A stretch of DNA of 59,733 bases, filler included, from Asterionella formosa (taxonomy: Eukaryota), in assembly GCA_002256025.1 (NCBI GenBank). It is 10 parts of 10 records of this genome, joined end to end, with 100 filler letters (N's around TTAATTAATTAA, not from the genome) between each part and the next. Parts side by side here need not be neighbours in the genome. Positions count along the whole stretch, not along the records: positions 41,906 to 47,782 come from NKIB01012900.1; positions 47,883 to 53,758 come from NKIB01012901.1; 8 more parts are not named here. The stretch is one strand, 5' to 3'. The notes beneath the pieces were generated by a model. It did no database searches, was not told where the DNA came from, and was given only the letters and a program-made list of their open reading frames with translations. Positions within the stretch are counted from its first letter, which is position 1; each line of letters opens with the position of its first letter. This document shows positions 2,863 through 58,504 of this stretch, in pieces. The translations under genes were made by a program, and so were the position numbers.

Positions 2863-4582
2863 ATTCGTTGATGGATGGATTGGAGTGGAGTCGCTTAGAT
2901 TGGCTGCTGACGATGGACACCTTGGGAAACGAAAGATTTGTCGGAAGACGACGGGGTTGTGACGGGAACAAGAATAATATGAGTCGTAGCTTTTATATAC
3001 ACGTATATCCATTACCGTCAATGACGATGCGAGATGGAAATTGCCACATCGTCGATATATTATTTTATATACCGGTACCTGGTAGCTAGAGTGGATCTTA
3101 TTTGCCATGGTACCTACGGTACCAGGTACATACGATATGGTGAACACATAATACAATATACCGACTGGGTATGTCATAATCTATGTACATACCGGTACCA
3201 CAATCTAGACTGTGTGTATGTATCTTGGTATCGTCCCAATCTATCTTTATGTACTTCCAGGGGACAATACCTACTTAGTCGTACTAATATGACTTGAGAG
3301 TGATGGCTTCCTCTTGTAACATACCGGTATACTGTCCTGTGCNNNNNNNNNNNNNNNNNNNNNNNNNNNNNNNNNNNNNNNNNNNNNNNNNNNNNNNNNN
3401 NNNNNNNNNNNNNNNNNNNNNNNNNNNNNNNNNNNNNNNNNNNNNNNNNNNNNNNNNNNNNNNNNNNNNNNNNNNNNNNNNNNNNNNNNNNNNNNNNNNN
3501 NNNNNNNNNNNNNNNNNNNNNNNNNNNNNNNNNNNNNNNNNNNNNNNNNNNNNNNNNNNNNNNNNNNNNNNNNNNNNNNNNNNNNNNNNNNNNNNNNNNN
3601 NNNNNNNNNNNNNNNNNNNNNNNNNNNNNNNNNNNNNNNNNNNNNNNNNNNNNNNNNNNNNNNNNNNNNNNNNNNNNNNNNNNNNNNNNNNNNNNNNNNN
3701 NNNNNNNNNNNNNNNNNNNNNNNNNNNNNNNNNNNNNNNNNNNNNNNNNNNNNNNNNNNNNNNNNNNNNNNNNNNNNNNNNNNNNNNNNNNNNNNNNNNN
3801 NNNNNNNNNNNNNNNNNNNNNNNNNNNNNNNNNNNNNNNNNNNNNNNNNNNNNNNNNNNNNNNNNNNNNNNNNNNNNNNNNNNNNNNNNNNNNNNNNNNN
3901 NNNNNNNNNNNNNNNNNNNNNNNNNNNNNNNNNNNNNNNNNNNNNNNNNNNNNNNNNNNNNNNNNNNNNNNNNNNNNNNNNNNNNNNNNNNNNNNNNNNN
4001 NNNNNNNNNNNNNNNNNNNNNNNNNNNNNNNNNNNNNNNNNNNNNNNNNNNNNNNNNNNNNNNNNNNNNNNNNNNNNNNNNNNNNNNNNNNNNNNNNNNN
4101 NNNNNNNNNNNNNNNNNNNNNNNNNNNNNNNNNNNNNNNNNNNNNNNNNNNNNNNNNNNNNNNNNNNNNNNNNNNNNNNNNNNNNNNNNATTCATTGCTT
4201 GTCACCAAGCAGGAACCACAAAAGAAGAAAGAACAAGTCATGTGTTGAAAAAATGTTACCGGTGGGGTTGTCAAAACATCATGTATACTGCCTGAAAGGT
4301 CCGGTAGTGCACATTTTATGCTCACCTTTTCAGTTTCGACCTATTCAGATGATTCATCTCATGCCTGCAAGACGAGATAGGCCACCTTTCGATGGAAATT
4401 ATAATCCTTAAGTTATGTAGGAAAATGATACTCTTCTTATTGACCGATGACGATTTGCAGAGTCAGTCTCTGAACACGACTCAGATTTGCTGACTCATGA
4501 ACCTGCTCAGCACACTGTCTTATACTAGCTTCGTAATACATATAGGAATCATCTCGTTCTCCATTTAAAAAAATTTGTTGAG

Positions 4583-11881: not shown

Positions 11882-12714
11882 NNNNNNNNNNNNNNNNNNN
11901 NNNNNNNNNNNNNNNNNNNNNNNNNTTAATTAATTAANNNNNNNNNNNNNNNNNNNNNNNNNNNNNNNNNNNNNNNNNNNNATCTTTTGTAGCAGTAGGT
12001 GAACAAGCAAGGAATCTGCTGGACTGAAGATATATGTGTTAGCCATATCACAGGATTTACTGAAATCAATAAACAAGCTTCCCCTGAGCGTCAATTGATC
12101 ATATCTTTTCTGTAAGACTCCAAATGTGGACCTGGCTTGTAAGGATACACAATGAAGTTTGAATCTTGATGTTTAGTATGTTGTTATCCTTCATCAATGG
12201 GACCACTGGAACTTGAGAGGACATCAACAATATTAATTCTAATTGGACTCTTTTTGAATTCAAAGTGAAGTATCTAACTAGAAGTAGTAGTATTTGTTGA
12301 ATATATGAGCTTATTTGTTAATCCTTGTGTGTAACTCGTTCTCCAAGTCGACACCAAAGTATACAATGAGGGTTAGTCGAGTTCTCTCATTATTGAGTTC
12401 TTATACATACATGATATAACACTAACCCTATATACATCTGTATTGATGCGCAAGATCGCTCACCTGGTACCCCCACTGTTAACACTGTTAAGACAGTGAT
12501 CTACTGGCCGGTTCATTTTATAAGGGTTTGGGTATGTTGTATTCATACTTGTATGTTAATAAACCGATTGACCGGCATTCTATACCGGTATGTCGGTAAC
12601 CGTTTATATTGTGTTGCCTTTTCCTCACCATCATACCAGGTACCTGGTGTAATCAATTCAAAACAGTCAGCAAATCCATTGCCTATCACGCATTACCAGT
12701 ACCAGGTACCGGTA

Positions 12715-12812
12715 CCCAGCAAGTTGCGGTAATTTTACTTAAACTAACATTTTAATCTGGGATAAAGATAACTAAATCTTTTGTTTCAGTAAAATTACCG
12801 CAACTTGCTGGG
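12715..12812. mobile_element. ~100-bp hairpin/MITE-like element; partial copy at 46291-46361
   Basis: Perfect 25-bp inverted repeat cccagcaagttgcggtaattttact / agtaaaattaccgcaacttgctggg; the right half recurs in another contig. Confidence 0.7.
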
Positions 12813-13150
12813 ACCCTGGTACCTGGTACTGGTACTCGGAGTACCAGGTACGAAACGACGGGTTCGAGACCGAACGTAGTACCTGGTATGTGTGGCCGCA
12901 CAAATGGATGCCAGCAGAGCTACCGTACCAGGTAGTATAGTACCAGGTACTAACACCTACCGCATCAGGAAATGTTTGCAATAAATTCTTGTCAGGAAAA
13001 AAAGTCTGGAAGATCTCGATTTATGGTTTCCAGGTCGTGGTTTTAGATGGTAGCCTGAGCCCTATGTGGTATGTACATACAACTCGATAAACTACCTGGT
13101 ACTACCGGTAGACAACTATTCTTTTATCTCATATTCTTCATCCAATAGTT

Positions 13151-13990
13151 ATGTTCGCAATGACCAATGTTTACTCAATGAATATTGTTCGCCACCATTC
13201 TCTGATCGCCTTCCTACTGCTGCTCACTCCATGCAACGCAAACATTGAAGAGATTTGGTCCCAATGGGGTAGTCTCGTTCGATATCTAATCTCCTTATTC
13301 CTCTTCATCTTCGGCCTACATCTTTTGTTGTACGGCCACTTGGCCACGTATGCCTTAATGAAGTTCTACAAACAGCATGGTGACCCTGCGAATGGTGATG
13401 TTTTGGATTGTACGCCTATCAAGCCTGATCGGTATCAAATAACAGTCTTATACACGGCATTGGTGCCAAAGTTCAAAGATTCCCGCCGCATGTTTCGAAA
13501 TCCTGACACTTCCGTCCCACAACGATTGATGCGACGATTCGATACCTCCGTGGCCTACCAACGGGGAAACGTCGTGACGTTACTACTGCTACCGGGAGTG
13601 CCAACCTCAGGGTTGCTAGTGGAACTGGTAGATCACATTTTGGCACAACATTCTCATCTAAGAACAATTTTGTTTCTTGTCCCGGGATTCTGTCTGATCG
13701 GTATTCTCCTATGGATGGCTTTAGCGACAATCCAAAATCAACCATACGGATACGTGGTATTGGTACTATCTGTTGGAATCATGGTATTAGTTTCTAGAAT
13801 ATTTGTTGGTGGACGTTGGGAAACGGAAAAGAAGCGGCGCTTCTTGTCAGCAGTTGTTACGAAAACTGTATCACCACCTGCTACTGGAGCGAAAGACCCG
13901 CTCTTGCCGACCTCCCACGACACTCTTGTTGTGGTTCCAGGGTATGATGTTCCCATGGAATATGGCCATGCAAAGGTAGTGGCACAATAG
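13151..13990 (+). CDS. Hypothetical multi-pass membrane protein
   Basis: 279-aa ORF with a signal-peptide-like N-terminus, one TM, a soluble loop and two C-terminal TMs; the start may be the downstream Met (MNIVRH). Confidence 0.75.
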   Translation: MFAMTNVYSMNIVRHHSLIAFLLLLTPCNANIEEIWSQWGSLVRYLISLFLFIFGLHLLLYGHLATYALMKFYKQHGDPANGDVLDCTPIKPDRYQITVLYTALVPKFKDSRRMFRNPDTSVPQRLMRRFDTSVAYQRGNVVTLLLLPGVPTSGLLVELVDHILAQHSHLRTILFLVPGFCLIGILLWMALATIQNQPYGYVVLVLSVGIMVLVSRIFVGGRWETEKKRRFLSAVVTKTVSPPATGAKDPLLPTSHDTLVVVPGYDVPMEYGHAKVVAQ

Positions 13991-17479: not shown

Positions 17480-19501
17480 ATAATCCTTAATTGGATGACT
17501 GAACTTTTATGCCACTGATCAAGCCAACAATCCAGTTCCTATCAATGTAGGCTATTTTAAATAACAATGAGACATAATGCTGCTTCCAGTTGCAGTGCTC
17601 GTCGATCTTGATGTCAATGGCGCATGCAATCCGACTAGACTTCTATACAATATCCGATTAAACGTGAACTGTTTCCCAACTGCAGATCATGCAATGTTAA
17701 TCAAGGTTAGAGCTAGCTCAAGTTGTTCTATTTCAAGAATTTCATTCATAGGGTGTGGACCCGAATATGGAAATGATTCATTCACTGGGAATGGATCGAC
17801 GATAGAGGTCCTATTGAAAATGGTCCAATTAGATCGCTGTGCATGGGCAACGCCTTGGTCATTGTTGTAGCNNNNNNNNNNNNNNNNNNNNNNNNNNNNN
17901 NNNNNNNNNNNNNNNTTAATTAATTAANNNNNNNNNNNNNNNNNNNNNNNNNNNNNNNNNNNNNNNNNNNNCTATTCCTTTGATCATATAACATATCGAT
18001 CATATGATAAATGGTGCCGTTGATGAGAAAATGAAAGATCAAAATTTATTTTCAGAAATCAGGACTATTTGATCTTAAAAATATGATCAAATGATCCTTA
18101 GCACATAAGCATATTCAGTTTTCCACTCCACTATTGTGGTACATCTAAGCCGCGTATTACGTGAAGTGACCATCAAGTAAATAAGCATAGTTGATTTTGA
18201 ATGGATCACATGAATTAGTTGAATACATCAAAATGCTTACTTGAATATATCTATATATTATTTGAATACATCACGTTAATTATTTTGATCAGATTATTAT
18301 GCATGCATTCCTGATCATCACTATCAGAAGATGCGATGATAATAAAATGGCTAAAAAGTGATTTCGAATGGTCGGAGTAGCATGTACATTTTTCTTGATA
18401 TATACTTTTTTCTTAATTAATGAATACAAATTAATATACATTTTCGAAGATTGCGAAGTCATGTGCCAAAGCACTTATCATGCGTGTCATTATTGAACAC
18501 ATTGTGAAAACCAGTCATGTACCTGGTACTCCCCAAATTTGTGACCGGTATTACGATACCGGTACCCATAACCATACATGACGCAAATACATGATGATGC
18601 AACGCGCCTACCGTAAATAGTTTGCCGTCTTCGTAGAAATCAATACCAAGACAAGATATAACTTTGTCGCAAATGAGGTTATGGTTCAATTCCATATTGT
18701 ATTTCGTGTATATTATGTGACGCGGAGACTTCTATACCTACCCTAATCATCCGTGTGCTTCATGGGATTTTTGTCGATCGACTACCGGTATTTCACGAAA
18801 GTACAAAAACGATCTATCGAGATGAACAACTTGCACCAAATCTCAAACTAATAACATACCGGTAGCTGGCTACCTGTACTACATGCTAGGGACGGAGATA
18901 GAGAACTCTCAGAATTTAGATGTACGTACGTTTTGATAGCAAAACGTGTTATTCTGCGTTCAATGTGTAATGGCAGTTTTTCACATCTGGAGTCGCAAAA
19001 CCAGGTATGTAGACCACCGATATATAGGTATTCCGTGTCGTATCCTGTATTTAATTGAGGGTACCAGGTACCAGGTACTAACACAGTTGGCCGTCTTGTG
19101 TACCAAGGTACCGGTGCCAGGTACGATCCTGAACAATATGTGCCGGTTAAATAAACCGGTGTTCATATGTCTACATTTAGAAATGACGTAGATGTCATAT
19201 CACATCTATTTATTTTGATGACAGCACATGGTTTGCTTTGAGCGACATCATTCCATCCTCAGAGGATCTCATCATTTCTTTAGTACAGCACATCAAGCAT
19301 ACGCCTGCCGGATCCAGGATCCAGTTTCTACTTCGCATAAATAACAGAGTATGACATACGCAGAGTTCCTGTCGCCTTCGTTGCGTTCTCAAGAAGATAT
19401 CGGAACTCGTTGGGCGAGGAAACAATCAAGCTCAACACTGACGCCTGCTAGGGGTCAACTAGATCCAACTTCTCACTTTTTATCAAATCGACTTTGTAAT
19501 C

Positions 19502-20017
19502 ATGAAGCTTTTCTTCATTCAAACTATAACATTCCTCGTATCTATCCTCTCTGTTGCTACCGCAGAGTCCGTGCTTGTTCAAGAACTCCACAAGGGCGAT
19601 CCCCATGCTGTCGACACTGCTGCTCTCGGTGGTGGACTTCGCCGCCTTGCAACTACTCCAATCAAATTCTTCGCTGTCTTGAGTCGGGCTCAAAACGTTG
19701 ACACCTGTACGAGCACTGCGAATGGTATGGGCAACGCCGTGCTCACCTACCTAAACAGGAAGCTTTGCGTGCTCCTTGGCTTTGGTGGAATTTCTGGTGC
19801 TGAAATTGCTTCTCACATCCATGGACCTGCCAGTATTGGCGCTTCTGGTGGTGTCCTCTTCAGTTTCACTAGTCGTAGTACAGTCAAGAAGCAGTGTTTC
19901 ACTCTAACCGCTGCCCAGGAGCTGCGTCTCCTAGCTGGTTCGCTCTATATCAATATCCACACTGCAAAATGCCCTAATGGAGAGATTCGGGGACAGATCA
20001 TGCGTGCTGTTGCCTAA
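19502..20017 (+). CDS. Secreted single-CHRD-domain protein
   Basis: Signal peptide (MKLFFIQTITFLVSILSVATA), ASHIHGPA...GGVLF and LLAGSLYINIHTAKCPNGEIRGQI CHRD signature. Confidence 0.9.
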   Translation: MKLFFIQTITFLVSILSVATAESVLVQELHKGDPHAVDTAALGGGLRRLATTPIKFFAVLSRAQNVDTCTSTANGMGNAVLTYLNRKLCVLLGFGGISGAEIASHIHGPASIGASGGVLFSFTSRSTVKKQCFTLTAAQELRLLAGSLYINIHTAKCPNGEIRGQIMRAVA

Positions 20018-25893: not shown

Positions 25894-26742
25894 TTATGTC
25901 CCATGGACGCGACAACTGACGAAATCGCCAGAAACCTCACTTGGTAATATCATGCGCGATTCGTCGTCCAGCAACTTCTGTTCCTGCTTCCTAGCTCGTC
26001 GTTCACGGAAAAGCTTTTGTAAATACGATCGTTTGCGGATGGAGCTTCTATAGGGTATTGGTACATATGAGGCTTTTCGTGCCTCGTTAGTGGCATTTTT
26101 TATTCTCTTGACAATGTCATCATCGTCGTCCAACCGTTCAAAATTTCTTGGAGAAGGAGGAGCAGTCGAACATGATGTGTCCTCAGTCTCAGTCATTGTA
26201 GTCGCGATCGTTGTTTCTCCGAATGTGGCCCGAGTCCTCAAATCATCTTGACCAAAGAACATTCCATCAACGCAAGTTGCATTTTCCTCGTTACTTCTGT
26301 TCTCGTTTATTGGGATCATCCCACACATCCCACCCGCATAAATGCCAAGAGATTCCAAGAAAGATGGAGGGGTTACGGGTTTCGTCGCCCTCCTTATTTC
26401 CTTTGGTCTCGATAGCAGGGATGAGTCCCAAGTGCTTTGATCTCTACTACCGGTATCGGTATTTACGCTGGAAATCCCCGCGGATGAAGCATCAGAATGC
26501 GTAGTTATGGACGAAATTGCGCTTATAGATATACCATGCTCCTCGTTTTGTGGAAATAGATGCGAATGGTCAAAACCACTCTTCCTTGCTGATAGATTCG
26601 TGTCGGCACAAGGTATCTCCAATGTGAATTGATCTTCCACGCTCAGTGACTCGCCGCCGACTGAACCATCGCCTTGTTCCAACAGATCAAGGTGAGATGG
26701 ATCGCTTCTACAACGAAGTATTCGATATGCATTCATCATCAT
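25894..26742 (-). CDS. Hypothetical low-complexity Ser/Thr/acidic protein
   Basis: ~280-aa ORF of coding-like composition; start at one of the MMM ATGs. Confidence 0.6.
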   Translation of the reverse strand: MMMNAYRILRCRSDPSHLDLLEQGDGSVGGESLSVEDQFTLEIPCADTNLSARKSGFDHSHLFPQNEEHGISISAISSITTHSDASSAGISSVNTDTGSRDQSTWDSSLLSRPKEIRRATKPVTPPSFLESLGIYAGGMCGMIPINENRSNEENATCVDGMFFGQDDLRTRATFGETTIATTMTETEDTSCSTAPPSPRNFERLDDDDDIVKRIKNATNEARKASYVPIPYRSSIRKRSYLQKLFRERRARKQEQKLLDDESRMILPSEVSGDFVSCRVHGT

Positions 26743-27466
26743 TATACATTTGGTTGACATAAAGTGTAAAGTGATATCATTTTACATACAGGTATGCTTG
26801 GTTGACCAAAAGTGTAAAGTGAGATACCGCCGTCGTGTTCCAAGCCTGCAATCGTTGCAAGAATGGCAAGCTCTGTGTCGCCAGCGGGGTATCACAACGA
26901 GTGACAAGGCGCTGGGCACCAGGTACTGGAAGGACATTTTGGTGCCTGTATTTTGGCGAGTATAGAGAAGGTCGCCTGACGCGGAGAGCTGGTTTTAACC
27001 GTTGGATACCGTTTTCTTGTGGATCGATTCAGGATGGTGGGAGCGATAATTGATGGGCGGTCATGGATGATTCACCTCGTCGTGCATTGCACGTCCAATG
27101 TCTCGCTCATTCAGACCTTGTGACGTCAAAACCTGTGCTGGCAGCTGGTACCTGGTACCCCGAGTACCGGTACTCCTGGTACCCTGGTACCTGGTACCAC
27201 AGGACCTGATACTCCTACTCTGGAATCCGGAGTTCATTATTATTACAAATACATGTGTATGTAGCAAACTGTAGTATATACCGGTATGCTGTCTCTGCTC
27301 ATACATAGATATGTATTGAGAAGAACCAGACAGAGTCAATCGTCAATTGATGTGTAGAAGTGACGACGACGTGCTATCCGGAACGAACTTGGTGTCAGTG
27401 TATCACTTGCGAAGCGCACTTTTCTCATGTCAAATCAATACTTTTAAATAGGAAATATATGAGCAA

Positions 27467-28054
27467 ATGACTTTGACCAGTGTACTCGGCGGAGTACTCT
27501 CGATATATTGTTTCATGCTCAGTGTGGCAACTATGTCAAGTGGAATTGTGGCCTTCACGTCGCCCTCCCTTTTCAGCCATGTGAACAGCAGGATGACGAC
27601 CTTAAATGCCAATTTTTTGTCCAACTTGTTTGGTGGTAATCAGAACACCAATAAGTCGACGGTTGTCTTTGATATTCCAATGTCCAATATCAAAGCAGGA
27701 CCCATTCGCTTCATTCTCAATATTCATCTGGTCGGTTTGCTCAACCAACCTGAAAAGGGAACATGGTTCTCCAAGCAGGATGATGAAGGCGGTCTCGACT
27801 TGTACTTTTGCGACGGAAGTGCAATGGTCTCGTTATCGTTCTCCGAGAACACAATCAAGGCCGAACGGTTTGGTGACAAACCATCGCTCCGTTACCTTCT
27901 CCAAGAATCCATCATTCTTCACGAGGTTTTGGACGAATTGAATGCGCTTGCGTTTGATGTGGGGGATATTGACGAAGAAAAGAGACTGTTACAACCAAAG
28001 GAAATTGATGGAATCGAGAAGGCACGCTCCAAACTGCCAGCGAAGGCAGCTTGA
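27467..28054 (+). CDS. Putative plastid-targeted hypothetical protein
   Basis: Hydrophobic signal followed by VA|FTSP (ASAFAP-type) and a Ser-rich transit peptide; mature part begins ANFLSNLFGG. Confidence 0.75.
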   Translation: MTLTSVLGGVLSIYCFMLSVATMSSGIVAFTSPSLFSHVNSRMTTLNANFLSNLFGGNQNTNKSTVVFDIPMSNIKAGPIRFILNIHLVGLLNQPEKGTWFSKQDDEGGLDLYFCDGSAMVSLSFSENTIKAERFGDKPSLRYLLQESIILHEVLDELNALAFDVGDIDEEKRLLQPKEIDGIEKARSKLPAKAA

Positions 28055-35925: not shown

Positions 35926-36783
35926 TCAAATTCATTTTAAGGAGCTGGCTTTTATCTGCATTGCAAGTCAATCCAAACCACTCACAATAATTGTTGATAC
36001 TAAATAGCCATGAAGACCTGCTATTGAATTGGTCATTATAACCTTGGTTGAACCCCTGGTTTCCAGAGGTTGCATAATAAAGGGTCACCAAGGCATAGAT
36101 TTGGAGTAATTCAGTATCCATGATTTCTGCAGTACCTTGCTCACTTTCTAACCAGATCATTGCCTGCTGCTGTGGGGAGCCGTCAGTCAAAAGTGCAGCC
36201 CCATTATCAAACGAGTTCTCAGATAAAAAGGGGAACAAAACAGAAGTTGGACTTGGTGATGGAGGAACTGATGTTGGATTCGATGTAAAAGGAGCCAATG
36301 TCTCATTGCTTGACTTGTTCCGAGTAAGCACAACTGCAACTACAGCAGCAACAATCGCAACAAGACTTGTGAGTCCACAAGATACCATGATGTTAATCAT
36401 GCTACGGCGACGTTGGGCCTTCGCTTCAGCTTCAGCATCGACAATTGCTACCCTTGCAGGAATATCAGGGGCAGATTCATCAACTAGAATGGCACTCACG
36501 GCCTCCTGTTGGCCTCCCTCTATGCTATGCATGGCGAGTGGTTGCTGACTTATTCCCTGGGACTCCTCTAAAGACCATTCATCGTCGGCACTTGACCTTG
36601 CATGACCACTCCCTCCCACTGAGACTGCTCCAGGAAGTGTTTGTGGAGGTGCTCCTGGTTCTTCATGCTCCACCACCGCAGGAGAATCCTCCTGCAAAAT
36701 GTTAGGCGCTGGTCCAGCCCTGTGGTTGACTTATTCTATCCCATTAATGTCTTCTCCATGTGAAGATTCAGAGTCCCGAGCTC
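35926..36783 (-). pseudogene. Inverted paralog of the adjacent TM-LRR gene; 5' truncated with a premature stop, 3' end lost at contig end
   Basis: Highly similar to ~37448-38310 (AEAEAKAQRRRSMINIMVSCGLTSLVAI identical); TAT codon is TAA at 36731-36733; homology ends near 36783. Confidence 0.65.
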
Positions 36784-37311
36784 GTTCCACTTACTGTTCT
36801 GTGAATTCGTCCCAGGCAGAAACTCTTGGAGCGAATCGATTTTCGATAGAATAAGTAGTTTCTACCGGGACAGTGTACAATACATATATTTATGTTGTGT
36901 CCAATGTGCTCAGGAACACTTTTTCCCGTGCCTTACCGTTAAGCTAAAATTAAACAATTGCTGGAGAAAGATTCTATGTTGTTGCCCGACATCATTATTA
37001 TTGCCCATATGCTCAGGCACCTTTTTTCCGTTATATATGTTAAAATTAAATTAAATAATAATCTGGAGGAAGATTTTAATATTTCTGCCTGGGAGTTCTT
37101 TTAAATAGGAAACTTAGTAGCCTACTTATACATTCCAAAAATAAGAATTTTCTTTTCACTCATGTGTACCTTTCACCCTGATATTATAGCCTGCGAGATT
37201 TCGCCTCATGTTTGTTTGATGCTTCGTTCTTCGCTTCTCCACACAATCTTGTCCTTGCCTTACTGTTGTGATTATTCTGCGCACTAAACACAATATACAA
37301 CAAGCAGCAGT

Positions 37312-39601
37312 ATGAAAGAAGACAGCAAGGAAGTCAAGAAAGGCAGCCAATATGATCACGTACGAACAGTGAAACTTTCTCTCGCTGCAAAAAAGGAAAG
37401 TGTTGATGCCAGGATACCTTTTGCTCAAGAAGCAAAGGAGGAAGAAAGAGCTCGGGACTCTGAATCTTCACATGGAGAAGACATTAATGGGAAGGAATAT
37501 GTCAACCAAAGGGCTGGGCCAGGGTCTAACATTTCTTACCAGAATCCTTCCACGGTGGTGGAAGATGAAGAGTCAGCACCTCTGCCAACAGATTCTGAAG
37601 CCGTTGCGGTGGGAGGGAGTGGTCGTGAAAATCCTGATGCAGAACTCACAAACGATGAATTGAATGTAGAGGAGACCCATGGAATCGATCAACATCCACT
37701 TGCTATTCGTGGCACAGAGGAAGGCCAACAGGAGATCGTGAATGCGACTCCTATTGATGAATCTACCCCTGTTTTCTTTACCACTGTGACGGCCATCGAC
37801 GCTGAAGCTGAAGCAAAGGCCCAACGTCGCCGTAGCATGATTAATATCATGGTATCTTGTGGACTCACAAGTCTTGTTGCAATTGTAGTGGTTGTCCTTG
37901 CAGTTGTGCTTCCTCGGAACAAGTCAAGCAATCAGACATTGGCTCCTTTCACATCGAATCCAACCTCCATTCCTCCATCACCAAGTCCAACGTCTGCTCT
38001 GTTCTCCTTATTATCTAAAAACTCGTTTGATAATGGGACTGCACTTTTGACTGACGGCTCCCCACAGCAGCAGGCAATGATCTGGTTAGAAAGTGAGCAC
38101 GGTACTGCAGAAATCATGGATACTGCTGAGTTGCTCCAAATCTATGCATTGGTGACCCTTTATTATGCAAGCTCTGGAGACCAGTGGCTCAACCGTGGTT
38201 CAAATGACCAAGTCAGTGGCAGGTCATTGTGGCTATTGAGTATCTACAATTTTTGTGATTGGTTTGGATTGACATGCAATGCAGATAGAAGCCAGGTCAT
38301 TTCGATAGATTTGCACAACAATACTTTAATGGGGTTTATTCCCCCGGAAGTTGGTCTTTTATCAAACTTAGGTAAGAAAATAAACACAGCAAGAGACAAA
38401 AACTAATCATTGAAGATCGCTCACTAATGAAATGAGTCACATAATTTTACGACAAAGAATTGTTTTCCTTGACAAATAATTTTCTAAGTGGATCATTACC
38501 AAGTGAACTTGGTCTACTGACAAGTGTTACAGGGTTATTTGTAAACGAGAACGAGCTTATTGGCCCAACTCCAAAGGAGCTTGGAAAGTTGACAAACATC
38601 ACAAAATTGTTATTGAATGATAACAAGTTGACCGGAACACTTCCAACAGAAATTGGCCAATTGACTAACCTTGTTGTTGCCTTGTTTCTACAAAATAATT
38701 TTTTGACGGGAATGATTCCAACAGAGGTTGGATTCTTGACAAGTCTAATGGCATTGTATATCTTCAAGAATTCATTCACTGGTACTATTCCTACAGAGAT
38801 TGGCAATTTGATAAGTCTAACTGATTTTGAAGCAAATGACAACATATTCAATGGGACAATTCCTACAGAGATTGGACTTTTGACAGATCTGACATATATG
38901 TTTCTATTAAGTAACCAGTTGACTGGTGCAATTCCCTCAGAAATTGGCAATTTGACAAACCTCATAGAATTTGGAGCCTACAAGAACCAGTTAAATAGAG
39001 CACTTCCTACAGAGATTGGACTCTTGACAGATCTAACAAGATTGTTTCTATATGATAATCAATTGACTGGTACACTTCCGACAGAAATTGGCAATTTGAG
39101 AAATGTTGTAGATTTTGAAGCAAGCTTAAACAATTTCAATGGAACACTTCCTACAGAGATTGGATTCTTGACAAGTCTAATGACATTGTATATCTATAAC
39201 AATTCATTCACTGATACCATTCCTACAGAGATTGGCAATTTGGCAAGTCTCAAAGATTTTCAAGCAGACACAAACCAGTTCAATGGCAGTCTTCCTACAG
39301 AGATTGGATACTTCACAAATCTAACGAAATTGTATATTCACTCCAATAAGTTTACTGGTGCAATTCCCACAGAAATTGGTCTCATGTCTTCATTGAGTAA
39401 GTTTTGTATCTCAAACTTGCATTTCTTGACCATTTGTCCTCATATTTCACTTTCTTGACAGCCTTATTATTTTTTGGAAAGAACAATTTTACAGGGCCGG
39501 TTCCAACAGAAGTATGTAGTATTGCACCATTAGAGGGCATTTATTTTTGCCCACCACTAATTTGTAACTGTGGTAGCTACTGTAAAGAGTTTTGTGATTG
39601 A
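37312..39601 (+). CDS. Type II TM leucine-rich-repeat receptor-like protein; 3 exons, introns 38372-38457 and 39397-39461
   Basis: Acidic cytosolic N-terminus, TM, Pro-rich stalk, LRRNT-like cap (FCDWFGLTC), ~14 plant-type 24-aa LRRs (GxIPTEIGxL) and a Cys cap; both GTAAG..AG introns keep frame. Confidence 0.92.
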
Positions 39602-42366: not shown

Positions 42367-42725
42367 GGCCTGTTCCATTGAGACCATATGTAGTGATGAG
42401 AGACGAAGAGCCATTGCCACTGACATTTAGTTTGCCCTCGGAGGCGTTTCCAGAACAACACAATTACCGACACCACCAAGACCCCCTGTACACCTTGGGA
42501 CCCGCATGGCCTTTGACATGTTTTAGCCAACACAGCTAGTGTGCTCCCTGCAAGGAAACTTTAATACTGTGCATCGAGTGGCACAAGAAGAACGAAAAGA
42601 AGTACTGTCCAGATGTCCCAAATTGTTGCTGGACGAATTGGAATTGGGCGAAAGTGTGCATCCTAAGGACATACAAGTAAGTGACTACAAATGCTGATTG
42701 GGTATATTAATAAAACAATATCCAA
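42367..42725 (+). pseudogene. Inverted, internally deleted duplicate fragment of the 43501-45057 gene
   Basis: Matches the minus strand of ~44660-44552 joined to ~44263-44030; includes the start of the intron; carries small indels and a stop. Confidence 0.9.
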
Positions 42726-43500
42726 TATGATGATGGAACTGCCACTTGATGATATAGAACTGCATCCAACCACATATTGGGTTATGCGGGTCAATGAATT
42801 TTCAAGGGTCATCATTTTCAAGAATAAAGGAATAGTTTCAATGAAAATCTTCAGGACACTCATGTTGCAACCAGCCACTCCCACTTATCTTGGCCATGAT
42901 AGTTGAATCTATAACCAAATGAAAATTGTTTATTTTTTCGTAATTCATAAAGATATGAAAAATGTTGGAACTTTGTTAACAAGGCAGTAATATCCGCAAC
43001 AGTATGGTACTGTTACCTGCCAAGTATACTCCCAACTAGACTACCAGTAGTCATAGACCTATGTTAATTCATCTGTTTATAGTATACATGGTAGTTCTTC
43101 AATGTCAATTGTTGCCAATGATGGAGTACCGGTATTAGCAAACAATGTATCATACTAGCTCTAATGAATATTTCCTTCCATTAAGTGATTCTTTGTTATA
43201 GTATATTATTTACAGTAAGTAGTATTGTAGGTTATGATTGTTGTCACATTTGGAATAGTTGTTGTTGTACTATTTACATGATGTGTGTTTTCGTTTGTGT
43301 TTGTGTGTTTGCTTTGTGCATAGAAAAGGTTTAGTCAAAATGTTCAAGAGCGTGACGAGACAGTGATGTCTCGTCACGAAAATGTACAAACGAGAACAGT
43401 GACAGGCCATGATCGAACAATGATGATGATGATGATACCAAACTCAGCAAGAGCATAGCATCTGTATCTATATATAAGTGTGTGTGTTTGTGTAGCAGGG

Positions 43501-45057
43501 CTACCACTGTTCAGCAACAGCAGCAGCACTTGCAGCATCAGTACCAAATGGTTCTGGAATTCTTGTAAAACAGAAAATAGTCCCCCGATGTCCTCTAACG
43601 ACACGAAGAGAGTCATCCAAATACAAGACGTCAACATAGGATACCCCATGTCCTCCCAGAGGTCGTTCAAAATCAAATTCCATACTCCCATCTGAGTTCA
43701 TAGACTTTGGAGGGTTGGCCCCCATGAGTAGATTCGCAGCCAAGCATCGAATCTTTTCTCCTAGTGATCTGGGAGTCAAGTGAGCATCATTCCCAAAGAA
43801 TCGATTCCATTCTCGTTGATCATCAATCGAGTCATTGGGTTCAATCCTTCCTCCAGTGAACCAAATGGAGAGTCTATTGGCAACATTGGGATCTGGTAGA
43901 ATGTATCCATAGGTGGTCATGATTCCCATAATGGGTCTTCGAATGTCCTTGTTTGGTGCATTTGGGAATTCTTGTTGGTGTGGTTCAATAGTAAAGGCAG
44001 TAATAATGCTGTGTATGTGTTAGAGTTGGATATTGTTTCAATATACCCAATCAGCATTTGTAGTCACGTACTTGTATGTCCTTAGGACACTTTCGCCCAA
44101 TTCCAATTCGTCCAGCAACGATTTGGGACATCTGGATAGCACTTCTTCTCGTTCTTCTTGTCCCACTCGATGTACAGGATTAAAGTTTCCTTGCAGGGAG
44201 CACACTAGCTGTGTTGGCAAAAACATGTCAAAGGCCATGCGTCCCAAGGTGTACAGGGGGTCTCCTCCTGGTGTTTGTCCCAATGTTCCAAAGTATGTGG
44301 CCTTGGACAAGGTGAGCCACATGCCTTCCATCCTGTTGTTGGAATCATAAGGATCATGTCCTGCCAGCAGCGTCAAGGATTGTTGTTGTTGTTGTTCATA
44401 CTCTTGTACCAATGGCAAGAGTGCATCTTCCACCATTTTCGTATCAACATTACCTGCACAACAAGCCAAGGCATGCAATAGTGCATCCTTGAGTGTTTCC
44501 AAGGAAGCAGGTGGTTGTTGAAGGACAAATGTCGGAATACAAGTGTCGTGATGGTGGTGTTGGTAATTGTGTTGTTCTGGAAATGCCTCCGAGGGCGAAT
44601 TAAACGTCAGTGGCGATGGCTGTTCGTCTCTCAGCACTACATATGGTCTCAATGGAACAGGCCTCAACACTTTCACTTGCATTGGAGCAGCTGAATGTAA
44701 ACTCTGAGAAGAAGTAGCTTGAGTATCTGAATCAGAAAACGGATTTGTTGATCGTTCCATGTAGTTGCCAGTATGACCAGTCTCTTGTTGCATGGTCCAC
44801 TTGCGATGCCATTCCATGGCATCCTCTCGGGCACATGTTAGTTCCTGACTGTCCATCGGTAGTCCAGTAGCATCTGCCAAGCTCAGCATGTTCATCAATG
44901 AGGAAGTCATGGATAATGTGGAAAGAGCTTCACATTGAGCTGCTTTGTTATTGCTGCTTCTGAAAGCAATTGGACGATGGAGAACAATCACATCTTCTTG
45001 ATGATGATGATGGTTGTGATGGTGGTGGTTGTCATGGGTATTGTTAATCGTTGCCAT
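43501..45057 (-). CDS. Conserved hypothetical protein with a C-terminal PAP-fibrillin/lipocalin-like motif and His-rich N-terminus; intron 44009-44071
   Basis: Removing GTACGT...CAG gives 497 aa (LRTYN-IITAFTIEP); YVDVLYLDDSLRVVRGHRG resembles the fibrillin C-terminal motif. Confidence 0.8.
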
Positions 45058-48000
45058 TGGATGGGGATCTCAAGCGCACTGCTGATCAGAATGATCAAGA
45101 GTGTTTTTTTTATTTTATTAACAAAAAATTGTGATTGGTATTTCTCATGTGTTGTCGCTAATCCATCTACCGGTATCGTAGGTAGAAATTCCAACAATGT
45201 GTACACACACATTCTCATGCACCGGTAGATACCTGGTACCAGGTACCCTAGTCTAGTCGTAGACTACCTGGTGCCTACTCGATATAGTAGCAGTACAATT
45301 GTTCGTATGGAATTTTTCTTGTACGAATGTGGGGTGGGCTCCTCCTGCCCATAACAACAAAACAATACAATCATCAATATTGACTTACGTACTTGGATCA
45401 TCCTTGATTTCGGACTTTTGGACGAAGCCAAACGAGTGCTTGTCGTCGAGGAGGAACATACTCGTCGGGGAATCCTTCATGTACCCTGGTACTAACATAC
45501 CGGTACAGCACGACACCAACACCTTTGCTGTACAAAAGAAAGTACCTGGTACCAATCATTTAAGTAAACGGTGTGTACATAGATTGAAATTGCAAAATGC
45601 TATATCAGACACTGTGCAGCCAGGAACCAGAATCCCATTGTAAACACGAGCCAGTGTCAATCATGATGTACGAACGGGGGTACCTGTTGAAGTAGAACTT
45701 ATAAGTATTTCTAGCTGGGGCAATAGAAGGTGCTTAGTAAGCACTATTCTGTCGGAGAATGAACGATAAGTAACGAAAAATTCGAAACAGAAGAGCCACC
45801 TGCTTGGGCAATAGGTGTTTTTTGGTACGCACCAGCATTTTGATAGTTCGTATATACTGTGTGTCCATCTGGAAACTGACAAAAGCCAAAATCAAATAGC
45901 CCTTCCGGAATGCCGGTCATGTAGTAAGAAAAGTTCGTCATTCAGACGAAGTCTGTATTAGTGATCGTGTCAAGCAATCATGTCGTCGTTCGAACCGACC
46001 AGCCGCAATATGTAAATCCTACCGTACTGGATGTTCCTGTAGTTGGACTACATACGGCAGCAAGACTACCGGTTGTATGTTATATAATGTACTGGGAGTT
46101 CCGGGAAAGTCCGAATATTGCGAATATTTGTCCGAACATGCAGACCGGGTACGGTATTTACCGGTAATCAAACAATATAACTGTAAATAAAATAAATACA
46201 GTATATAGGAGTATACCCGAGGTTAATTTTGTTTTATGATATTGTGTACATGTATTATGCCTTCTATCGGTAACAGGTACCTGGGAACCTTGGGGTAAAG
46301 ATAGCTAAATCTTTAGTTCCAGCAAAATTACCGGAACTTGCTGGTACCCTGGTACCTGGTATAACTCTCTGACTGTCGCGCGACGGTACCAGGGTACCTG
46401 GTATATACTCCAGGTACCTGTGACCTTAGTCCCTCCTTCCCGGTATATTGTATAAGTGGTATCAGAACTACCTACCGGTATACTGATACTGATTGTGAAG
46501 TTTGTACCTGGTACGATGAATGATCAGACATGCATATGAAGTAAATGAATGAATACCGGTATCCATTGGAGAATATGTAAAAAGGTACGGGTATAATAAT
46601 CACACATTATTAGAATAAAGCAATTAGTAATCGTTTTTCTATGTGTCCAGAAACATTTGGATTTGTCGTGATTCAATCAGTTGCAGTTTAAATCATGATC
46701 CGTTTATCCTTTACTAGTTTATCAGACCTTCTCTCACTCCCTGCTCCTTGGACTCATTGTACCTTGACGCCGATTTCATCTGGTCAAGGCCGCTTCTGAT
46801 TTGAACACCTCGTCAATGCATTGAAGCATTACGCCTCCAGAGTCTGCCCTTGAACGCATTTCCGGTTTTCCTCTCTCTACCTACAGCTCTTGGCACAGAG
46901 GTCCCATTTGCTTGTGCCCCCACCCCCACACACACCTTATTTGGTACCGAGTCTAAAAAGACACTCACCACTACACCCACAAGAGCATACAAAGGGCCCC
47001 CCTTCTTTCATTTTACACTTACTTCTGTTCCACCGTGTCCCTAGCCCTTCTGGATGCCCAGGACCTCTGGCTTGATGACCCTCTTGACATTGGTAGTGGC
47101 ACACCAGCCATGGTCGATCTCGCATATGCCGACTTCATGCTTGCTACAATGGGATTCCCACAAGACTTCATTGACCTTCTAATTGATGCCAGTATACATG
47201 ATTTCACCCTTGTAGGCATCTTTATTACTAAACCTATGATTTCCATGATCGACATCCTTACCCCAGAAGCGTTCACCACCCACCGCAATCACACGGTTCG
47301 CCTCCTTGTCCTTGCAACTGAACTCCATCCCAACCAGAGCCTCGCCAGTGTCCCAGTCACTGCACTTCCATCCATGTTCAATCCCGGTGCCTAACGGTCT
47401 CAGACTACCGATACCGGTATATAGATACCGGTAGTACCTGGTACCTGGTACCTGGTACAGTACATACGACTATTGTTACATTACCAGAATATCCTGCAGA
47501 TCGAGTCGGGCATACGTCCTTAGGCGGGCAGGTGCAGGTCCAAACGCTTTGCTTCGCATTGTGAAACCAAGATTCCGTTCCCTCATGTGATTCCACCTGG
47601 AATCTTTTTTTCTACTTGGAAAACATACCAGTGAAGTAGATGATGACGGTACCATTAGAACGGTATAATGGACTGTGCACATCAGTGACAGGATGCTACG
47701 TACTGGTAGGGAGAAACACGAAAACCTGGACGGATATATATGTTGAAATATATGGCGCCACTCTAGCGCGCTCCAGTACTGCNNNNNNNNNNNNNNNNNN
47801 NNNNNNNNNNNNNNNNNNNNNNNNNNTTAATTAATTAANNNNNNNNNNNNNNNNNNNNNNNNNNNNNNNNNNNNNNNNNNNNAAATGACGGATACACCTT
47901 GTATTAGAAAATGTTGTTACGCCCAGTACAAAAAATATCCGGCATTCTCGCGAGCAGAGTGCCTGGTTACTAACATGATTGCATCTTGTCGAATGCCGAC

Positions 48001-57479: not shown

Positions 57480-57625
57480 TCATGGTGCTTTTTACTGAAG
57501 CGATGGTCAGCTCTCGATCGCACTTAGGAGTCAACTTATCAACCAATATCAATCATGGTGCTTTCTACTGAAGCGATGGTCAGCTCTCGATCGCACTTAG
57601 GAGTCAACTTATCAACCAATATCAA
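57480..57625. repeat. 73-bp tandem duplication with one mismatch
   Basis: tcatggtgcttt.tactgaagcgatggtcagctctcgatcgcacttaggagtcaacttatcaaccaatatcaa x2. Confidence 0.95.
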
Positions 57626-57939
57626 TACAGATAACAAAAGTATATATATAAAGTATAATGTGTTCATAGCCCATTTGTACTCCCCTATTATTGTGATACC
57701 TGCCAACAAGACCTGTGCTCCCCTAGTTTTGTTAGCATAGATGAGTCCCCAACCACATTTCGAAAATGGTGATTGTCTTAGCCACAGCAATAGGGGATAC
57801 CTGTATTAAGAATGACATGGAAAATTCAGTCGTAAAAAGAAGTAAAGTAATAACACTAAGAATGAGAACGAAAATTGAGATCGCAAGATCACTTTCACAG
57901 CGTTCTCCTGGACGATTGTTCGGTACCTGCCTGTTATTG

Positions 57940-58410
57940 GTAAAATTCAACCCAAGTTGTATTTTTCTGTAGACCCCTGGTATTGTCCTACTCGGGACAT
58001 GATGGTACCTTGACATTATTGACGAAATTCTACCAAAGTAGTATTTTTCTGTAGGGCTCCGGTAGTGTTCTACTCTGGACAGGTCAATACTGTCCGGTAC
58101 CCCTCCCTTGCTTGACCGTGGTGAAAATATGGTATAGAGAAAGGCAAAAATTCTACCCAGTAGTACTGGGGGTAGAATTTTTTTTCACATTTTGGTAGAA
58201 TATTCTACCAACGGACCGATGGAACCCTGCAGTATGCCATGGTATTGTCCAAGAAATTCTACCAGGGGTACCTGGTACGTCGTACTGGAGTACCGGTAGT
58301 GGTACCAGTACCAGGGTGGTACATGCAAAAAATTCAACCCCGGTACCAGGGGCACCAGGTACTAAGCGATAGTATAATACTGGTTGGTCCTCGTTCCTAC
58401 CAAGGGTACA
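57940..58410. repeat. Degenerate repeat array built on AAATTCTACC in both orientations
   Basis: Motif near 57943, 58025, 58148, 58254 and 58331, with inverted ggtagaat near 58172 and 58194; two ~57-bp blocks (57943, 58025) align. Confidence 0.65.
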
Positions 58411-58504
58411 GTGCAACCTTTTAAGACCGTAGTGAAAGCTAGTGTACTAGCAGTCAACTAGCACTGTGTACAAGGTAAACTACAAGACACCCTGGTACTG
58501 GTAT

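What the first reader, a model, noticed from the sequence alone, without database searches (positions are those of the whole stretch)
45165..47480. Highly iterated GGTACC/ACCGGT/CCWGG palindrome clusters flanking genes in most contigs
Seen: dense, non-periodic runs of overlapping palindromes (e.g. ccggtagtacctggtacctggtacctggtacagtac at 47428; ggtacctggtaccccgagtaccggtactcctggtaccctggtacctggtacc at 27147). They occur at ~3070-3340, 12570-13110, 18520-19160, 27140-27290, 45165-45560, 46050-46560, 47400-47480 and 58090-58500, in independent contigs. They are mostly 5' of genes or at gene/TE borders and look scarce in CDS. Inference: a genome-wide iterated-palindrome system reminiscent of cyanobacterial HIP1. 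It could be a methylation or chromatin-boundary signal, a DNA-binding-protein array, or the product of palindrome-seeded template-switch expansion. It is not explained by any TE identified here.
Basis: partly seen in the sequence, partly recalled or inferred. Interest (0 to 1): 0.75.

Follow-up and report, generated by a model that had tools for sequence, protein, structure and literature searches.

The report
Palindrome arrays upstream of diatom genes
In this freshwater diatom the DNA between genes, mostly on the side where genes start, carries clusters of one short mirror-image word (TACC-GGTA); this is a real and apparently undescribed feature that most likely marks docking sites for a paired DNA-binding protein, although a self-copying repeat is not excluded.

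Summary
TACCSGGTA occurs 0 times. GGTACC, ACCGGT and CCWGG are mostly overlaps of this dyad. Dyads are clustered, and 24 of 26 of each type lie outside ORFs of 150 aa or more. Independent lake metagenomes hold the arrays unchanged, so they are not artefacts, and the array words sit in many unrelated contexts.

A metagenome scan found a second diatom-like group with the same arrays. Crude ORF models give 7.0 motifs (dyads plus GGTACC) per kb in divergent gaps, 4.5 in tandem gaps, 0.7 in convergent gaps and 0.2 in ORFs. The per-gap tests are modest (p 0.014 to 0.05). One homologous gene pair keeps an array at the same upstream place although its interior has turned over.

Best reading (0.4): homotypic binding-site arrays for a dimeric DNA-binding protein upstream of promoters. 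Rivals are self-propagating palindromic simple sequence (0.3) and foldback or MITE-type termini (0.18); one such MITE is present.

The HIP1 analogy fails on distribution. CpG-to-TpG decay of the dyad hints at methylation.

The parts
3070..3329 (.). Dyad cluster: 5 dyads (TACCGGTA at 3070, 3190, 3322; TACCWGGTA at 3076, 3120). It lies at the upstream end of ORF 1663-3180 (-).
12462..13110 (.). Dyad cluster: 11 dyads. It ends 41 bp before the first ATG (13151) of ORF 13112-13987 (+).
12694..12834 (.). 141-bp foldback, MITE-like element. Its arms end in GGTACC(W)GGTACC words. As single-stranded DNA it folds at -53.1 kcal/mol (z -14).
18520..19160 (.). Dyad cluster: 6 dyads plus GGTACC and ACCGGT words. 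It lies upstream of the CHRD-domain ORF 19463-20014 (+).
27147..27286 (.). Dyad cluster in the divergent gap between ORF 25897-26781 (-) and ORF 27452-28051 (+). It includes a degenerate heptamer array at 27145-27198.
45168..45553 (.). Focal cluster 1: TACCGGTA at 45168 and 45498; TACCTGGTACCAGGTACC at 45230-45247; TACCTGGTA at 45543. It begins 111 bp upstream of ATG 45057 of the minus-strand gene.
46068..46561 (.). Focal cluster 2: TACCGGTA at 46159, 46473 and 46554; TACCTGGTA at 46353, 46395 and 46505. Independent DNA contigs of runs X2 and X6 cover 46304-46721 with 0 differences.
46291..46361 (.). Half copy (90% identity) of the foldback MITE-like element, including its GGTACCCTGGTACCTGGTA end.
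   Evidence: 16 loose ends at 46296 in X6, agreement 0.77
47412..47457 (.). Focal cluster 3: two TACCGGTA followed by a perfect (GTACCTG) array of 3.6 units. It lies inside RNA contigs that span 46701-47741.
58096..58360 (.). Dyad and GGTACC cluster between convergent long ORFs (S26 peptidase on +, M3 peptidase on -). A near-identical contig (L035) differs here by a 68-bp indel and an unalignable stretch.
43180..45077 (-). Neighbouring gene: polyA-RNA contigs cover it. It has a 63-nt GT..AG intron at 44009-44071 and its ATG at 45057. The named homologs are from diatoms.

Best explanation
The clusters are homotypic arrays of one dyad-symmetric site with half-site TACC. It comes in two spacings: (A/G)TACCGGTA(T/C) and GTACC(A/T)GGTAC. 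The arrays are scattered over 100 to 1500 bp of intergenic DNA, mostly upstream of genes. I read them as docking sites for a dimeric sequence-specific DNA-binding protein that tolerates 0 or 1 bp between half-sites, as bZIP dimers do. Such a protein could act as an upstream activating or architectural (boundary) element of promoters.

Shown: the dyad, its sharpness, its clustering, its exclusion from ORFs, a modest 5' bias, its presence in two diatom-like lineages, and the retention of an array at one homologous upstream place despite turnover of its interior.

Inferred: that a protein binds it, the protein's class, and any effect on transcription or chromatin. Arrays probably grow and shrink by local duplication, which is why short heptamer runs occur.
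For: 1. Sharp dyad definition. TACCGGTA and TACCWGGTA each occur 26 times against about 0.3 expected, and TACCSGGTA occurs 0 times. 30 of the 52 dyads do not overlap any GGTACC. The flanks extend the symmetry: G at -1 in 22 of 26 and C at +1 in 20 of 26 for the W form.

2. Most sites are not tandem. TRF finds only five short heptamer runs of 2.7 to 7 units. 15 of 26 TACCGGTA have no GTAC within 25 bp. In the second lineage 55 isolated TACCWGGTA are perfect, against 50 one-off variants spread over 24 neighbour words.

3. Position. Density of motifs (dyads plus GGTACC) is 7.0 per kb in divergent gaps, 4.5 in tandem gaps, 0.7 in convergent gaps and 0.2 in ORFs. Gaps with 3 or more motifs number 31 of 74 5'-containing gaps against 2 of 19 convergent gaps (Fisher p 0.014). 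50 of 74 ORF ends that face arrays are 5' ends, against 56% overall (p 0.046). Few motifs lie in the first 200 bp before the ATG, with a plateau from 200 to 1000 bp.

4. L026 and L062 carry homologous genes (80% identity) and a conserved stretch of about 300 bp before the ATG. An array starts right after that stretch in both, but the array interiors do not align.

5. Adjacent heptamers carry near-random central bases (91 direct against 70 mirrored), while the other six positions are perfect by the way the pairs were picked. In contigs of other GC content, direct pairs dominate 65 to 22.

6. Arrays flank ordinary host genes. 104 of 128 arrays share nothing with other loci once the motif words are masked.

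7. Stramenopile bZIPs bind assorted 8-bp palindromes (PMC11267843, passages seen).
Against: - No binding protein is known and none could be sought.
- The 5' bias rests on crude ORF models and small numbers. Using the fetched loci alone it is not significant (p 0.12 with all gaps, 0.67 when gaps holding a search seed are left out). It could also reflect less free DNA in 3' gaps.
- Only about 40% of 5' gaps carry an array.
- There is no helical phasing between sites.
- In the second lineage TACCGGTA has largely decayed to TACTGGTA/TACCAGTA (32 against 142). That argues against strong constraint on the CpG form.
- A near-identical contig (L035) differs from the window by indels inside an array, as expected of unstable repeats.
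- RNA contigs cover one array, and other RNA contigs contain array words.
- One cluster lies in a convergent gap.
Confidence: 0.4

Rival explanations
1. Self-propagating palindromic simple sequence. GGTACC(W) units and related self-complementary words expand by slippage and by hairpin or template-switch copying. They persist neutrally where DNA is free of constraint, which is mostly 5' intergenic DNA, and have no function.
For: - Spacing peaks at 7, 14 and 21 bp, and short heptamer runs occur.
- Arrays fold as hairpins better than shuffles (z -2.2 to -4.6 for 4 of the 6 array stretches folded; -0.1 and -1.1 for the other two).
- The second lineage's 5' gaps also hold long TAGTAGTA, TACTAGTA and CTAGCTAG low-complexity runs.
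- Array interiors turn over completely between homologous loci and differ by indels between near-identical contigs.
- Mixed direct and mirrored neighbours (91:70) fit mixed direct and inverted copying.
- The CpG form decays.
- Array-bearing gaps are the long ones.
Against: - Most dyads are isolated 8- or 9-mers separated by unique sequence. Slippage cannot renew these, yet they remain perfect.
- TACCSGGTA is absent.
- Arrays at 46304-46721 and 46896-47455 are identical in two independent metagenomes.
- Convergent gaps are nearly empty (2 of 19).
Confidence: 0.3
2. Transposon-derived. The arrays are the terminal or subterminal repeats (transposase-binding words) of foldback or MITE-type non-autonomous elements, or their remnants, which insert preferentially upstream of genes.
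For: - A 141-bp foldback element (12694-12834) ends in these words. A half copy lies at 46291-46361 and another copy in L015.
- Sixteen contig ends in run X6 agree (0.77) on its interior.
- A 68-bp insertion bounded by GGTAC words separates the window from L035.
- As I recall, dense and irregular motif runs in both orientations are what the subterminal regions of Ac and En/Spm and the arms of foldback elements look like.
Against: - In L015 the element's right end abuts non-array DNA, so element and array are separable.
- No clear target-site duplication was seen.
- Flanks of the array words are heterogeneous in 24 to 54 contigs per border (agreement 0.36 to 0.39).
- 104 of 128 arrays share no sequence with other loci. 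The 0.56-Mb sample would, however, miss mid-copy families.
- No transposase domain lies near the window's arrays.
Confidence: 0.18
3. HIP-like product of DNA methylation and repair, or a methylation target signal. The centre of the dyad is CCGG (CpG) or CCWGG (CWG), both symmetric methylation contexts.
For: - One-off variants are dominated by CpG-to-TpG products: 11 of 40 in the window and 142 of 223 in the second lineage.
- CpG observed/expected is 0.78 and 0.85.
- The abstract of PMC4390886 links HIPs to methyltransferases.
Against: - The word is clustered and at chance level in ORFs, whereas HIP1, as I recall, is spread through genes.
- The variant bias is central, not terminal as the HIP1 abstract reports.
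- No modification data or methyltransferase could be examined.
Confidence: 0.07
4. Assembly or sequencing artefact.
For: Short-read assemblies break at such repeats (many partial contigs).
Against: - The stretch is held by runs of 12 studies.
- DNA contigs of X2 and X6 cover 46304-46721 and 46896-47455 with 0 base differences.
- The same dyad arrays occur in unrelated metagenome contigs.
Confidence: 0.01

Closest known systems
HIP1 (GCGATCGC) and alternate highly iterated palindromes of cyanobacteria (Elhai 2015, PMC4390886; abstract and outline seen, plus a word search of the text)
   Same: A single 8-bp palindrome is over-represented by one to two orders of magnitude, and words that overlap it come next. 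A link to DNA methylation is possible.
   Different: The organism is a eukaryote. The words are clustered into intergenic arrays and at chance level in ORFs. There are two spacings of one half-site. One-off variants are biased to the central CpG, not the outer bases. No cognate methyltransferase could be sought.
Promoter and insulator palindromes read by dimeric factors, such as the Drosophila DRE TATCGATA (DREF, BEAF-32 CGATA clusters between head-to-head genes) and yeast general regulatory factor sites (recalled, not looked up here)
   Same: An 8-bp palindrome, or clusters of its half-sites, upstream of many unrelated genes and enriched between divergent genes.
   Different: The arrays here are far larger (up to 1.5 kb with 10 to 40 sites). 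They lie mostly 200 to 1000 bp from the ATG in the second lineage. No factor is known, and no chromatin data exist.
bZIP dyads with flexible half-site spacing (AP-1 7-bp against CRE 8-bp sites, recalled; assorted 8-bp palindromes bound by Phytophthora bZIPs, PMC11267843, passages seen)
   Same: Inverted 4-bp half-sites that either abut or are separated by one base.
   Different: The half-site TACC is not a reported bZIP half-site in what I read. The assignment is an analogy only.
Subterminal repeat regions of Ac/Ds and En/Spm, and arms of foldback transposons and MITEs (recalled)
   Same: Dense, irregular runs of one short word in both orientations. One foldback MITE-like element here ends in these words.
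   Different: Most arrays have unique interiors and flanks. No target-site duplication or transposase was seen. Arrays persist at a homologous site across 20% coding divergence.
Gene-proximal short tandem repeats (Reinar et al. 2024, PMC11686069; abstract seen)
   Same: Repetitive DNA whose density shifts at gene borders and that may interact with transcription factors.
   Different: That survey covers mono- and dinucleotide repeats. Here the unit is a 7- to 9-bp palindrome and most copies are not tandem.

Membership tests
HIP1-type highly iterated palindrome | One 8-bp palindrome with observed/expected far above other words | tested here: met
   TACCGGTA occurs 26 times against 0.28 expected, and it is the top 8-mer.
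HIP1-type highly iterated palindrome | Spread along the genome, genes included, rather than in local arrays (recalled feature) | tested here: not met
   2 of 26 copies lie in ORFs of 150 aa or more. Variance/mean is 2.69 against at most 1.55 at random.
HIP1-type highly iterated palindrome | 1-nt deviations biased to the first and last base (abstract of PMC4390886) | tested here: not met
   The commonest variants are TACTGGTA and TACCAGTA, changed at the central CpG.
HIP1-type highly iterated palindrome | A cognate orphan DNA methyltransferase in the genome | not testable with these tools
   No whole genome is held for this window.
Microsatellite or minisatellite | Head-to-tail periodic copies make up the feature | tested here: not met
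   There are only five heptamer runs of 2.7 to 7 units. 30 of 52 dyads overlap no GGTACC, and 15 of 26 TACCGGTA have no GTAC within 25 bp.
Microsatellite or minisatellite | Neighbouring units share their variable base, as slippage predicts | tested here: inconclusive
   91 direct against 70 mirrored neighbours in diatom-like loci. In contigs of other GC content the counts are 65 against 22.
Microsatellite or minisatellite | Length polymorphism between strains above that of the flanks | tested here: inconclusive
   Arrays are identical in the X2 and X6 contigs, but there are indels between the window and L035.
MITE or foldback transposon | Copies share terminal inverted repeats and interior sequence | tested here: not met
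   This holds only for the 12694-12834 family (3 copies). 104 of 128 arrays share nothing with other loci, and array flanks are heterogeneous. The sample is small.
MITE or foldback transposon | Target-site duplications; whole-element presence/absence | tested here: inconclusive
   There is no consistent duplication at three element ends, and one 68-bp indel is bounded by GGTAC.
Homotypic cluster of sites for a dimeric DNA-binding protein | A dyad-symmetric site with a fixed half-site and restricted spacing | tested here: met
   The spacing of TACC and GGTA is 0 bp (26 copies) or one W (26 copies), and never one S (0 copies). The flanks are symmetric.
Homotypic cluster of sites for a dimeric DNA-binding protein | Enrichment upstream of genes | tested here: met
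   Met modestly: 31 of 74 against 2 of 19 gaps (p 0.014) and 50 of 74 ORF ends (p 0.046). It is not significant on the fetched loci alone.
Homotypic cluster of sites for a dimeric DNA-binding protein | Sites kept better than the surrounding DNA | tested here: inconclusive
   Perfect copies far outnumber any single variant, and an array is retained at a homologous place. No site-by-site orthology was available.
Homotypic cluster of sites for a dimeric DNA-binding protein | A protein that binds the site | not testable with these tools
   There is no genome, no binding data and no candidate gene in the window.

The most novel reading that the evidence does not exclude
A lineage of diatoms uses an undescribed genome-wide promoter-architecture system. 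Thousands of upstream arrays of one dyad (half-site TACC, spacing 0 or 1) are bound by a dimeric factor, which could be bZIP-like or transposase-derived. The arrays mark or insulate promoters, especially between head-to-head genes. They are continually rebuilt by palindrome-driven copying, so their position is conserved while their sequence turns over.
Probability: 0.25. Interest if true: 0.8.

Novelty: new variant of a known kind. Interest (0 to 1): 0.6.

Why it matters
Diatom promoters are poorly understood, and no general upstream element is known for them. This word occurs about once per kb of sampled genome. It sits next to ordinary housekeeping genes and is shared by at least two diatom-like lineages that are abundant in lakes.

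If the word is a binding site, it gives a direct handle for a pull-down to find a major chromatin or transcription factor, and it gives design rules for expression constructs. If it is a self-propagating palindrome, it is an unusually clean eukaryotic case for studying how hairpin-prone repeats colonise promoters, and it explains why short-read assemblies of these algae break between genes.

Tried and rejected
- **Whole genome:** none is held, so no genome-wide k-mer profile was possible.
- **Non-coding RNAs:** Rfam and tRNA scans of the window found nothing.
- **Transposon genes:** Pfam on 60 window ORFs (16, 44) found no transposase, reverse transcriptase or integrase near arrays.
- **Taxonomy:** the protein atlas was uninformative.
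- **Earlier findings of the scan:** there is nothing on this genome or this dyad. The GGTACC notes concern phages and prokaryotes.
- **Literature:** the exact strings TACCGGTA, GGTACCWGGTACC and relatives hit only primers and barcodes. The word searches gave no description of such arrays in diatoms.
- **Helical phasing:** there is none beyond the 7-bp repeat.
- **Long perfect palindromes:** no preference for them.
- **Orientation of the central W relative to the gene:** none (159 T, 149 A).
- **Per-gap 5'/3' test on fetched loci alone:** not significant (p 0.12; 0.67 without seed gaps).
- **Nearest-end test in tandem gaps:** 11 of 16, p 0.21.
- **Orthologs of window genes among the fetched loci:** only L035, so no cross-species comparison of the window's own promoters was possible.
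- **RNA cover:** the abundant polyA contig of the neighbouring gene stops at 45077, and low-depth contigs lie further on. Absence of cover over arrays is not usable as evidence. Summed contig depths over array bins are not copy numbers.
- **SBP-domain (GTAC-core) factors:** considered only from a reference-list entry in PMC5570362. Not tested.
Full report
**The window.** It consists of 11 pieces, mostly about 5.9 kb each, joined by N spacers. No whole genome is held for it. The pieces carry long ORFs for ordinary eukaryotic proteins: gamma-tubulin complex component, MutL/PMS-type mismatch repair, DnaJ, LRR, a kinase, and S26 and M3 peptidases. RNA contigs show a 63-nt GT..AG intron. The homologs of the gene beside the focal region that carry an organism label are from diatoms: Mayamaea pseudoterrestris, a 'Psemu1' gene model, and unlabelled MMETSP transcripts. 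I therefore accept 'diatom' at that level and did not try to name the species.

- Both quoted strings are present.
- TACCGGTA occurs 26 times against 0.28 in dinucleotide-preserving shuffles. TACCWGGTA occurs 26 times against 0.33, and GGTACC 47 times against 6.55. None of 100 shuffles reached the observed count for any of the three.
- Under an order-1 Markov model every leading 7-mer and 8-mer belongs to this word family.
- The 52 dyads fall in 20 of 117 bins of 500 bp, with variance/mean 2.69 against at most 1.55 in 2000 random placements. Eight of the 11 pieces hold at least one.
- Only 2 of 26 copies of each dyad lie in ORFs of 150 aa or more, although these ORFs cover 49% of the bases. 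CATG, GATC and TGCA show no such bias.

**What the word really is.**
- The half-sites either abut (TACCGGTA) or are separated by one A or T (TACCWGGTA). A central C or G never occurs (0 copies), and a 2-bp spacer occurs 7 times.
- CCWGG outside dyads is at chance (81 against 77 expected for all copies). 26 of 38 ACCGGT and 26 of 35 ACCWGGT copies are parts of dyads.
- 30 of the 52 dyads overlap no GGTACC. The 15 GGTACC that lie more than 100 bp from any dyad compare with about 6.5 expected for all copies.
- The symmetry extends outward. The W form is GTACCWGGTAC (G at -1 in 22 of 26, C at +1 in 20 of 26). The CpG form in this species prefers A/T flanks (A at -1 in 13 of 26, T at +1 in 14 of 26).
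- Tandem repetition is a minor component. TRF finds five heptamer runs of 2.7 to 7 units. Spacing peaks at 7, 14 and 21 bp with no 10 to 11 bp phasing.

**Not an artefact, not one repeat family.**
- The 2.7-kb focal stretch is held, in whole or in part, by 20 listed runs from 12 studies. Eleven of them hold at least half of its words, and those with an organism label are mostly freshwater, lake-water or algae metagenomes.
- DNA contigs of two such runs (X2, X6) cover 46304-46721 and 46896-47455 without a base difference. One 3-base insertion lies outside the arrays.
- At the borders of the array words, 24 to 54 contigs per border in X2 run on into sequence that does not agree between contigs (agreement 0.36 to 0.39). 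The words therefore sit in many unrelated contexts.
- Self-comparison of the window finds extended similarity between clusters in one case only. A 141-bp foldback element lies at 12694-12834, and 46291-46361 is a 90% copy of its right half.
- That element folds at -53 kcal/mol (z -14). It has a further copy in L015 and a well-agreeing interior in 16 contig ends of X6. In L015 its right end abuts non-array DNA, so the element and the arrays are separable.

- Two loci are the window's own organism (L035 at 98.8% and L098 at 100%).
- After dropping duplicates (L028, L036, L075, L032, L095, L114), 30 loci of 3 kb or more with GC 0.40 to 0.48 form a second group.
- These carry ordinary eukaryotic genes (DEAD-box helicases, a Na/Pi cotransporter, LRR proteins, an oxidoreductase). 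The species-labelled homologs of its DEAD-box helicase among the listed hits at 55-60% identity are diatoms (Thalassiosira, a 'Syned...' MMETSP entry, Fragilariopsis, a Bacillariaceae MAG; Odontella at 51%).
- In this group dyads lying more than 300 bp from any search seed still reach 0.47 per kb, and 19 of 30 loci have three or more. In 14 loci of other GC content the figure is 0.07 per kb, and 0 of 14 have three or more. Dispersed multi-array architecture is thus a property of these diatom-like genomes, not of the seed pattern.

**Position relative to genes.** I used crude models: stop-to-stop ORFs of 150 aa or more, overlapped shorter ORFs dropped, and gaps under 300 bp ignored.
- In 25 loci the density of motifs (dyads plus GGTACC) is 7.0 per kb in divergent gaps, 4.5 in tandem gaps and 0.7 in convergent gaps. 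The 0.2 per kb inside ORFs comes from the 33 sequences (27 loci, two of them duplicates dropped later, plus 6 window pieces).
- Counting gaps rather than motifs, and adding the window's pieces, 31 of 74 gaps that contain a 5' end hold three or more motifs against 2 of 19 convergent gaps (Fisher p 0.014).
- On the loci alone the gap test is not significant (p 0.12, or 0.67 when gaps holding a seed are removed).
- In tandem gaps the array median lies toward the downstream gene's start in 13 of 18 (Wilcoxon p 0.047).
- Of ORF ends that face an array-bearing stretch, 50 of 74 are 5' ends against 56% of all ends (p 0.046).
- Motifs are rare in the first 200 bp before the first ATG and level from 200 to 1000 bp.
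- In the window itself the arrays end 41 to about 390 bp before the nearest first ATG at 13151, 27467, 26760, 19502 and 45057.
- The 58.1-58.4 kb cluster is an exception, lying between convergent long ORFs.
- The 5' bias is therefore real but modest on these data.

**Turnover and maintenance.**
- L026 and L062 carry homologous genes (80.6% identity over 752 bp). The roughly 300 bp before the ATG is conserved in both. In L062 the first dyad words start at its end, and in L026 they start about 75 bp further on. Both arrays run for 560 to 680 bp, but the two interiors cannot be aligned.
- Between the window and the near-identical L035, the array near 58.3 kb differs by a 68-bp insertion bounded by GGTAC words, an unalignable stretch, and a T/C change at a dyad's CpG.
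- The dyads themselves are sharp. For TACCWGGTA there are 26 perfect copies against 21 one-off copies spread over 24 neighbour words in the window, and 332 against 169 in the second group.
- Copies with no GTAC within 25 bp are still mostly perfect in the second group (55 against 50).
- Neighbouring heptamers carry near-random central bases (91 same, 70 mirrored). Contigs of other GC content, presumably plain tandem repeats, give 65 against 22.
- The CpG form decays specifically to TACTGGTA/TACCAGTA: 11 of 40 one-off copies in the window and 142 of 223 in the second group, where only 32 intact copies remain. This points to CpG methylation and weak constraint on that form there.

**Interpretation.** The data fit best a dyad-symmetric protein-binding site present as homotypic arrays upstream of many unrelated genes. 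Array size is kept fluid by local duplication. The two spacings of one half-site recall bZIP dimers, and stramenopile bZIPs do bind assorted 8-bp palindromes (PMC11267843, passages seen). No protein is known, so this step is inference. I give this reading 0.4.

The main rival (0.3) is neutral, self-propagating palindromic simple sequence. It is favoured by the hairpin potential, by the accompanying TAGTAGTA, TACTAGTA and CTAGCTAG runs in the second group, and by the instability. It is disfavoured by the many isolated perfect dyads.

A transposon origin (0.18) is supported by the foldback element and the 68-bp insertion. It is disfavoured by the heterogeneous flanks and the lack of target-site duplications. 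My 0.56-Mb sample could miss mid-copy families.

A HIP-like methylation-repair origin (0.07) fails on distribution and on variant pattern when compared with the abstract of PMC4390886.

**Novelty.** Searches for the exact strings and three word searches on diatom promoters, motifs and palindromes found no description. The survey of gene-proximal repeats that I saw covers only mono- and dinucleotide repeats (PMC11686069, abstract). The scan's earlier notes hold nothing on this genome or this dyad. I file it as a new variant of known kinds (iterated palindromes, homotypic site clusters), with interest 0.6.

Noticed in passing
window 12694-12834; 46291-46361; L015:871-985: A 141-bp foldback MITE-like element (arms of about 45 bp, -53 kcal/mol as ssDNA), with a half copy in the focal region and a copy in another metagenome contig. 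Many contig ends in run X6 agree on its interior, so it is multi-copy.
   Followed up: partly
L056:4440-5330; L033:11100-11290 and other 5' gaps of the second group: Long runs of TAGTAGTA, TACTAGTA and CTAGCTAG-type low-complexity sequence lie next to the dyad arrays. TACTACTA/TAGTAGTA is the most over-represented 8-mer there (481 against 16.7 expected).
   Followed up: partly
second-group loci (30 loci, 349 kb): The CpG form of the dyad is mostly replaced by its deamination products (TACTGGTA plus TACCAGTA 142, TACCGGTA 32). This suggests methylated CpG at these sites.
   Followed up: partly
window 47590-47782: Very high summed depth of metatranscriptome contigs (X9 about 152,000; X15 about 14,000). 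At 47740 there are 36 contig ends with one well-agreeing foreign upstream sequence. There is no Rfam match and no obvious ORF. The piece ends at 47782.
   Followed up: no
window 42367-42725 vs 44026-44663: Inverted partial duplicate (92-93% identity) of part of the neighbouring gene. One X2 contig joins 42479 to 44540 on opposite strands.
   Followed up: no
window 35939-36787 vs 37444-38301: 861-bp inverted duplication (82.6% identity) that forms a head-to-head pair of paralogous ORFs without a Pfam match.
   Followed up: no
window 58150-58240: Other palindromes that use the same half-site at wider spacing, for example GGTAGAATATTCTACC, and TTCTACCC...GGGGTAGAA around AGTACT.
   Followed up: no
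window 57480-57626; 57922-58081; L039: A 73-bp tandem duplication and a 66-bp repeat. Part of this region matches a marine metagenome contig at 94% and window 5169-5238 at 79%, so it is probably a dispersed repeat.
   Followed up: no
L034:16016-19033 (-): A 1006-aa ORF with a piggyBac-type transposase domain (DDE_Tnp_1_7, E 3.5e-38) in a second-group contig. No dyad arrays flank it.
   Followed up: no
L015:1-275: The 3' end of a gene whose product ends in a basic RPL41-like tail (a recalled resemblance). The dyad array lies about 500 bp downstream of its stop codon.
   Followed up: no
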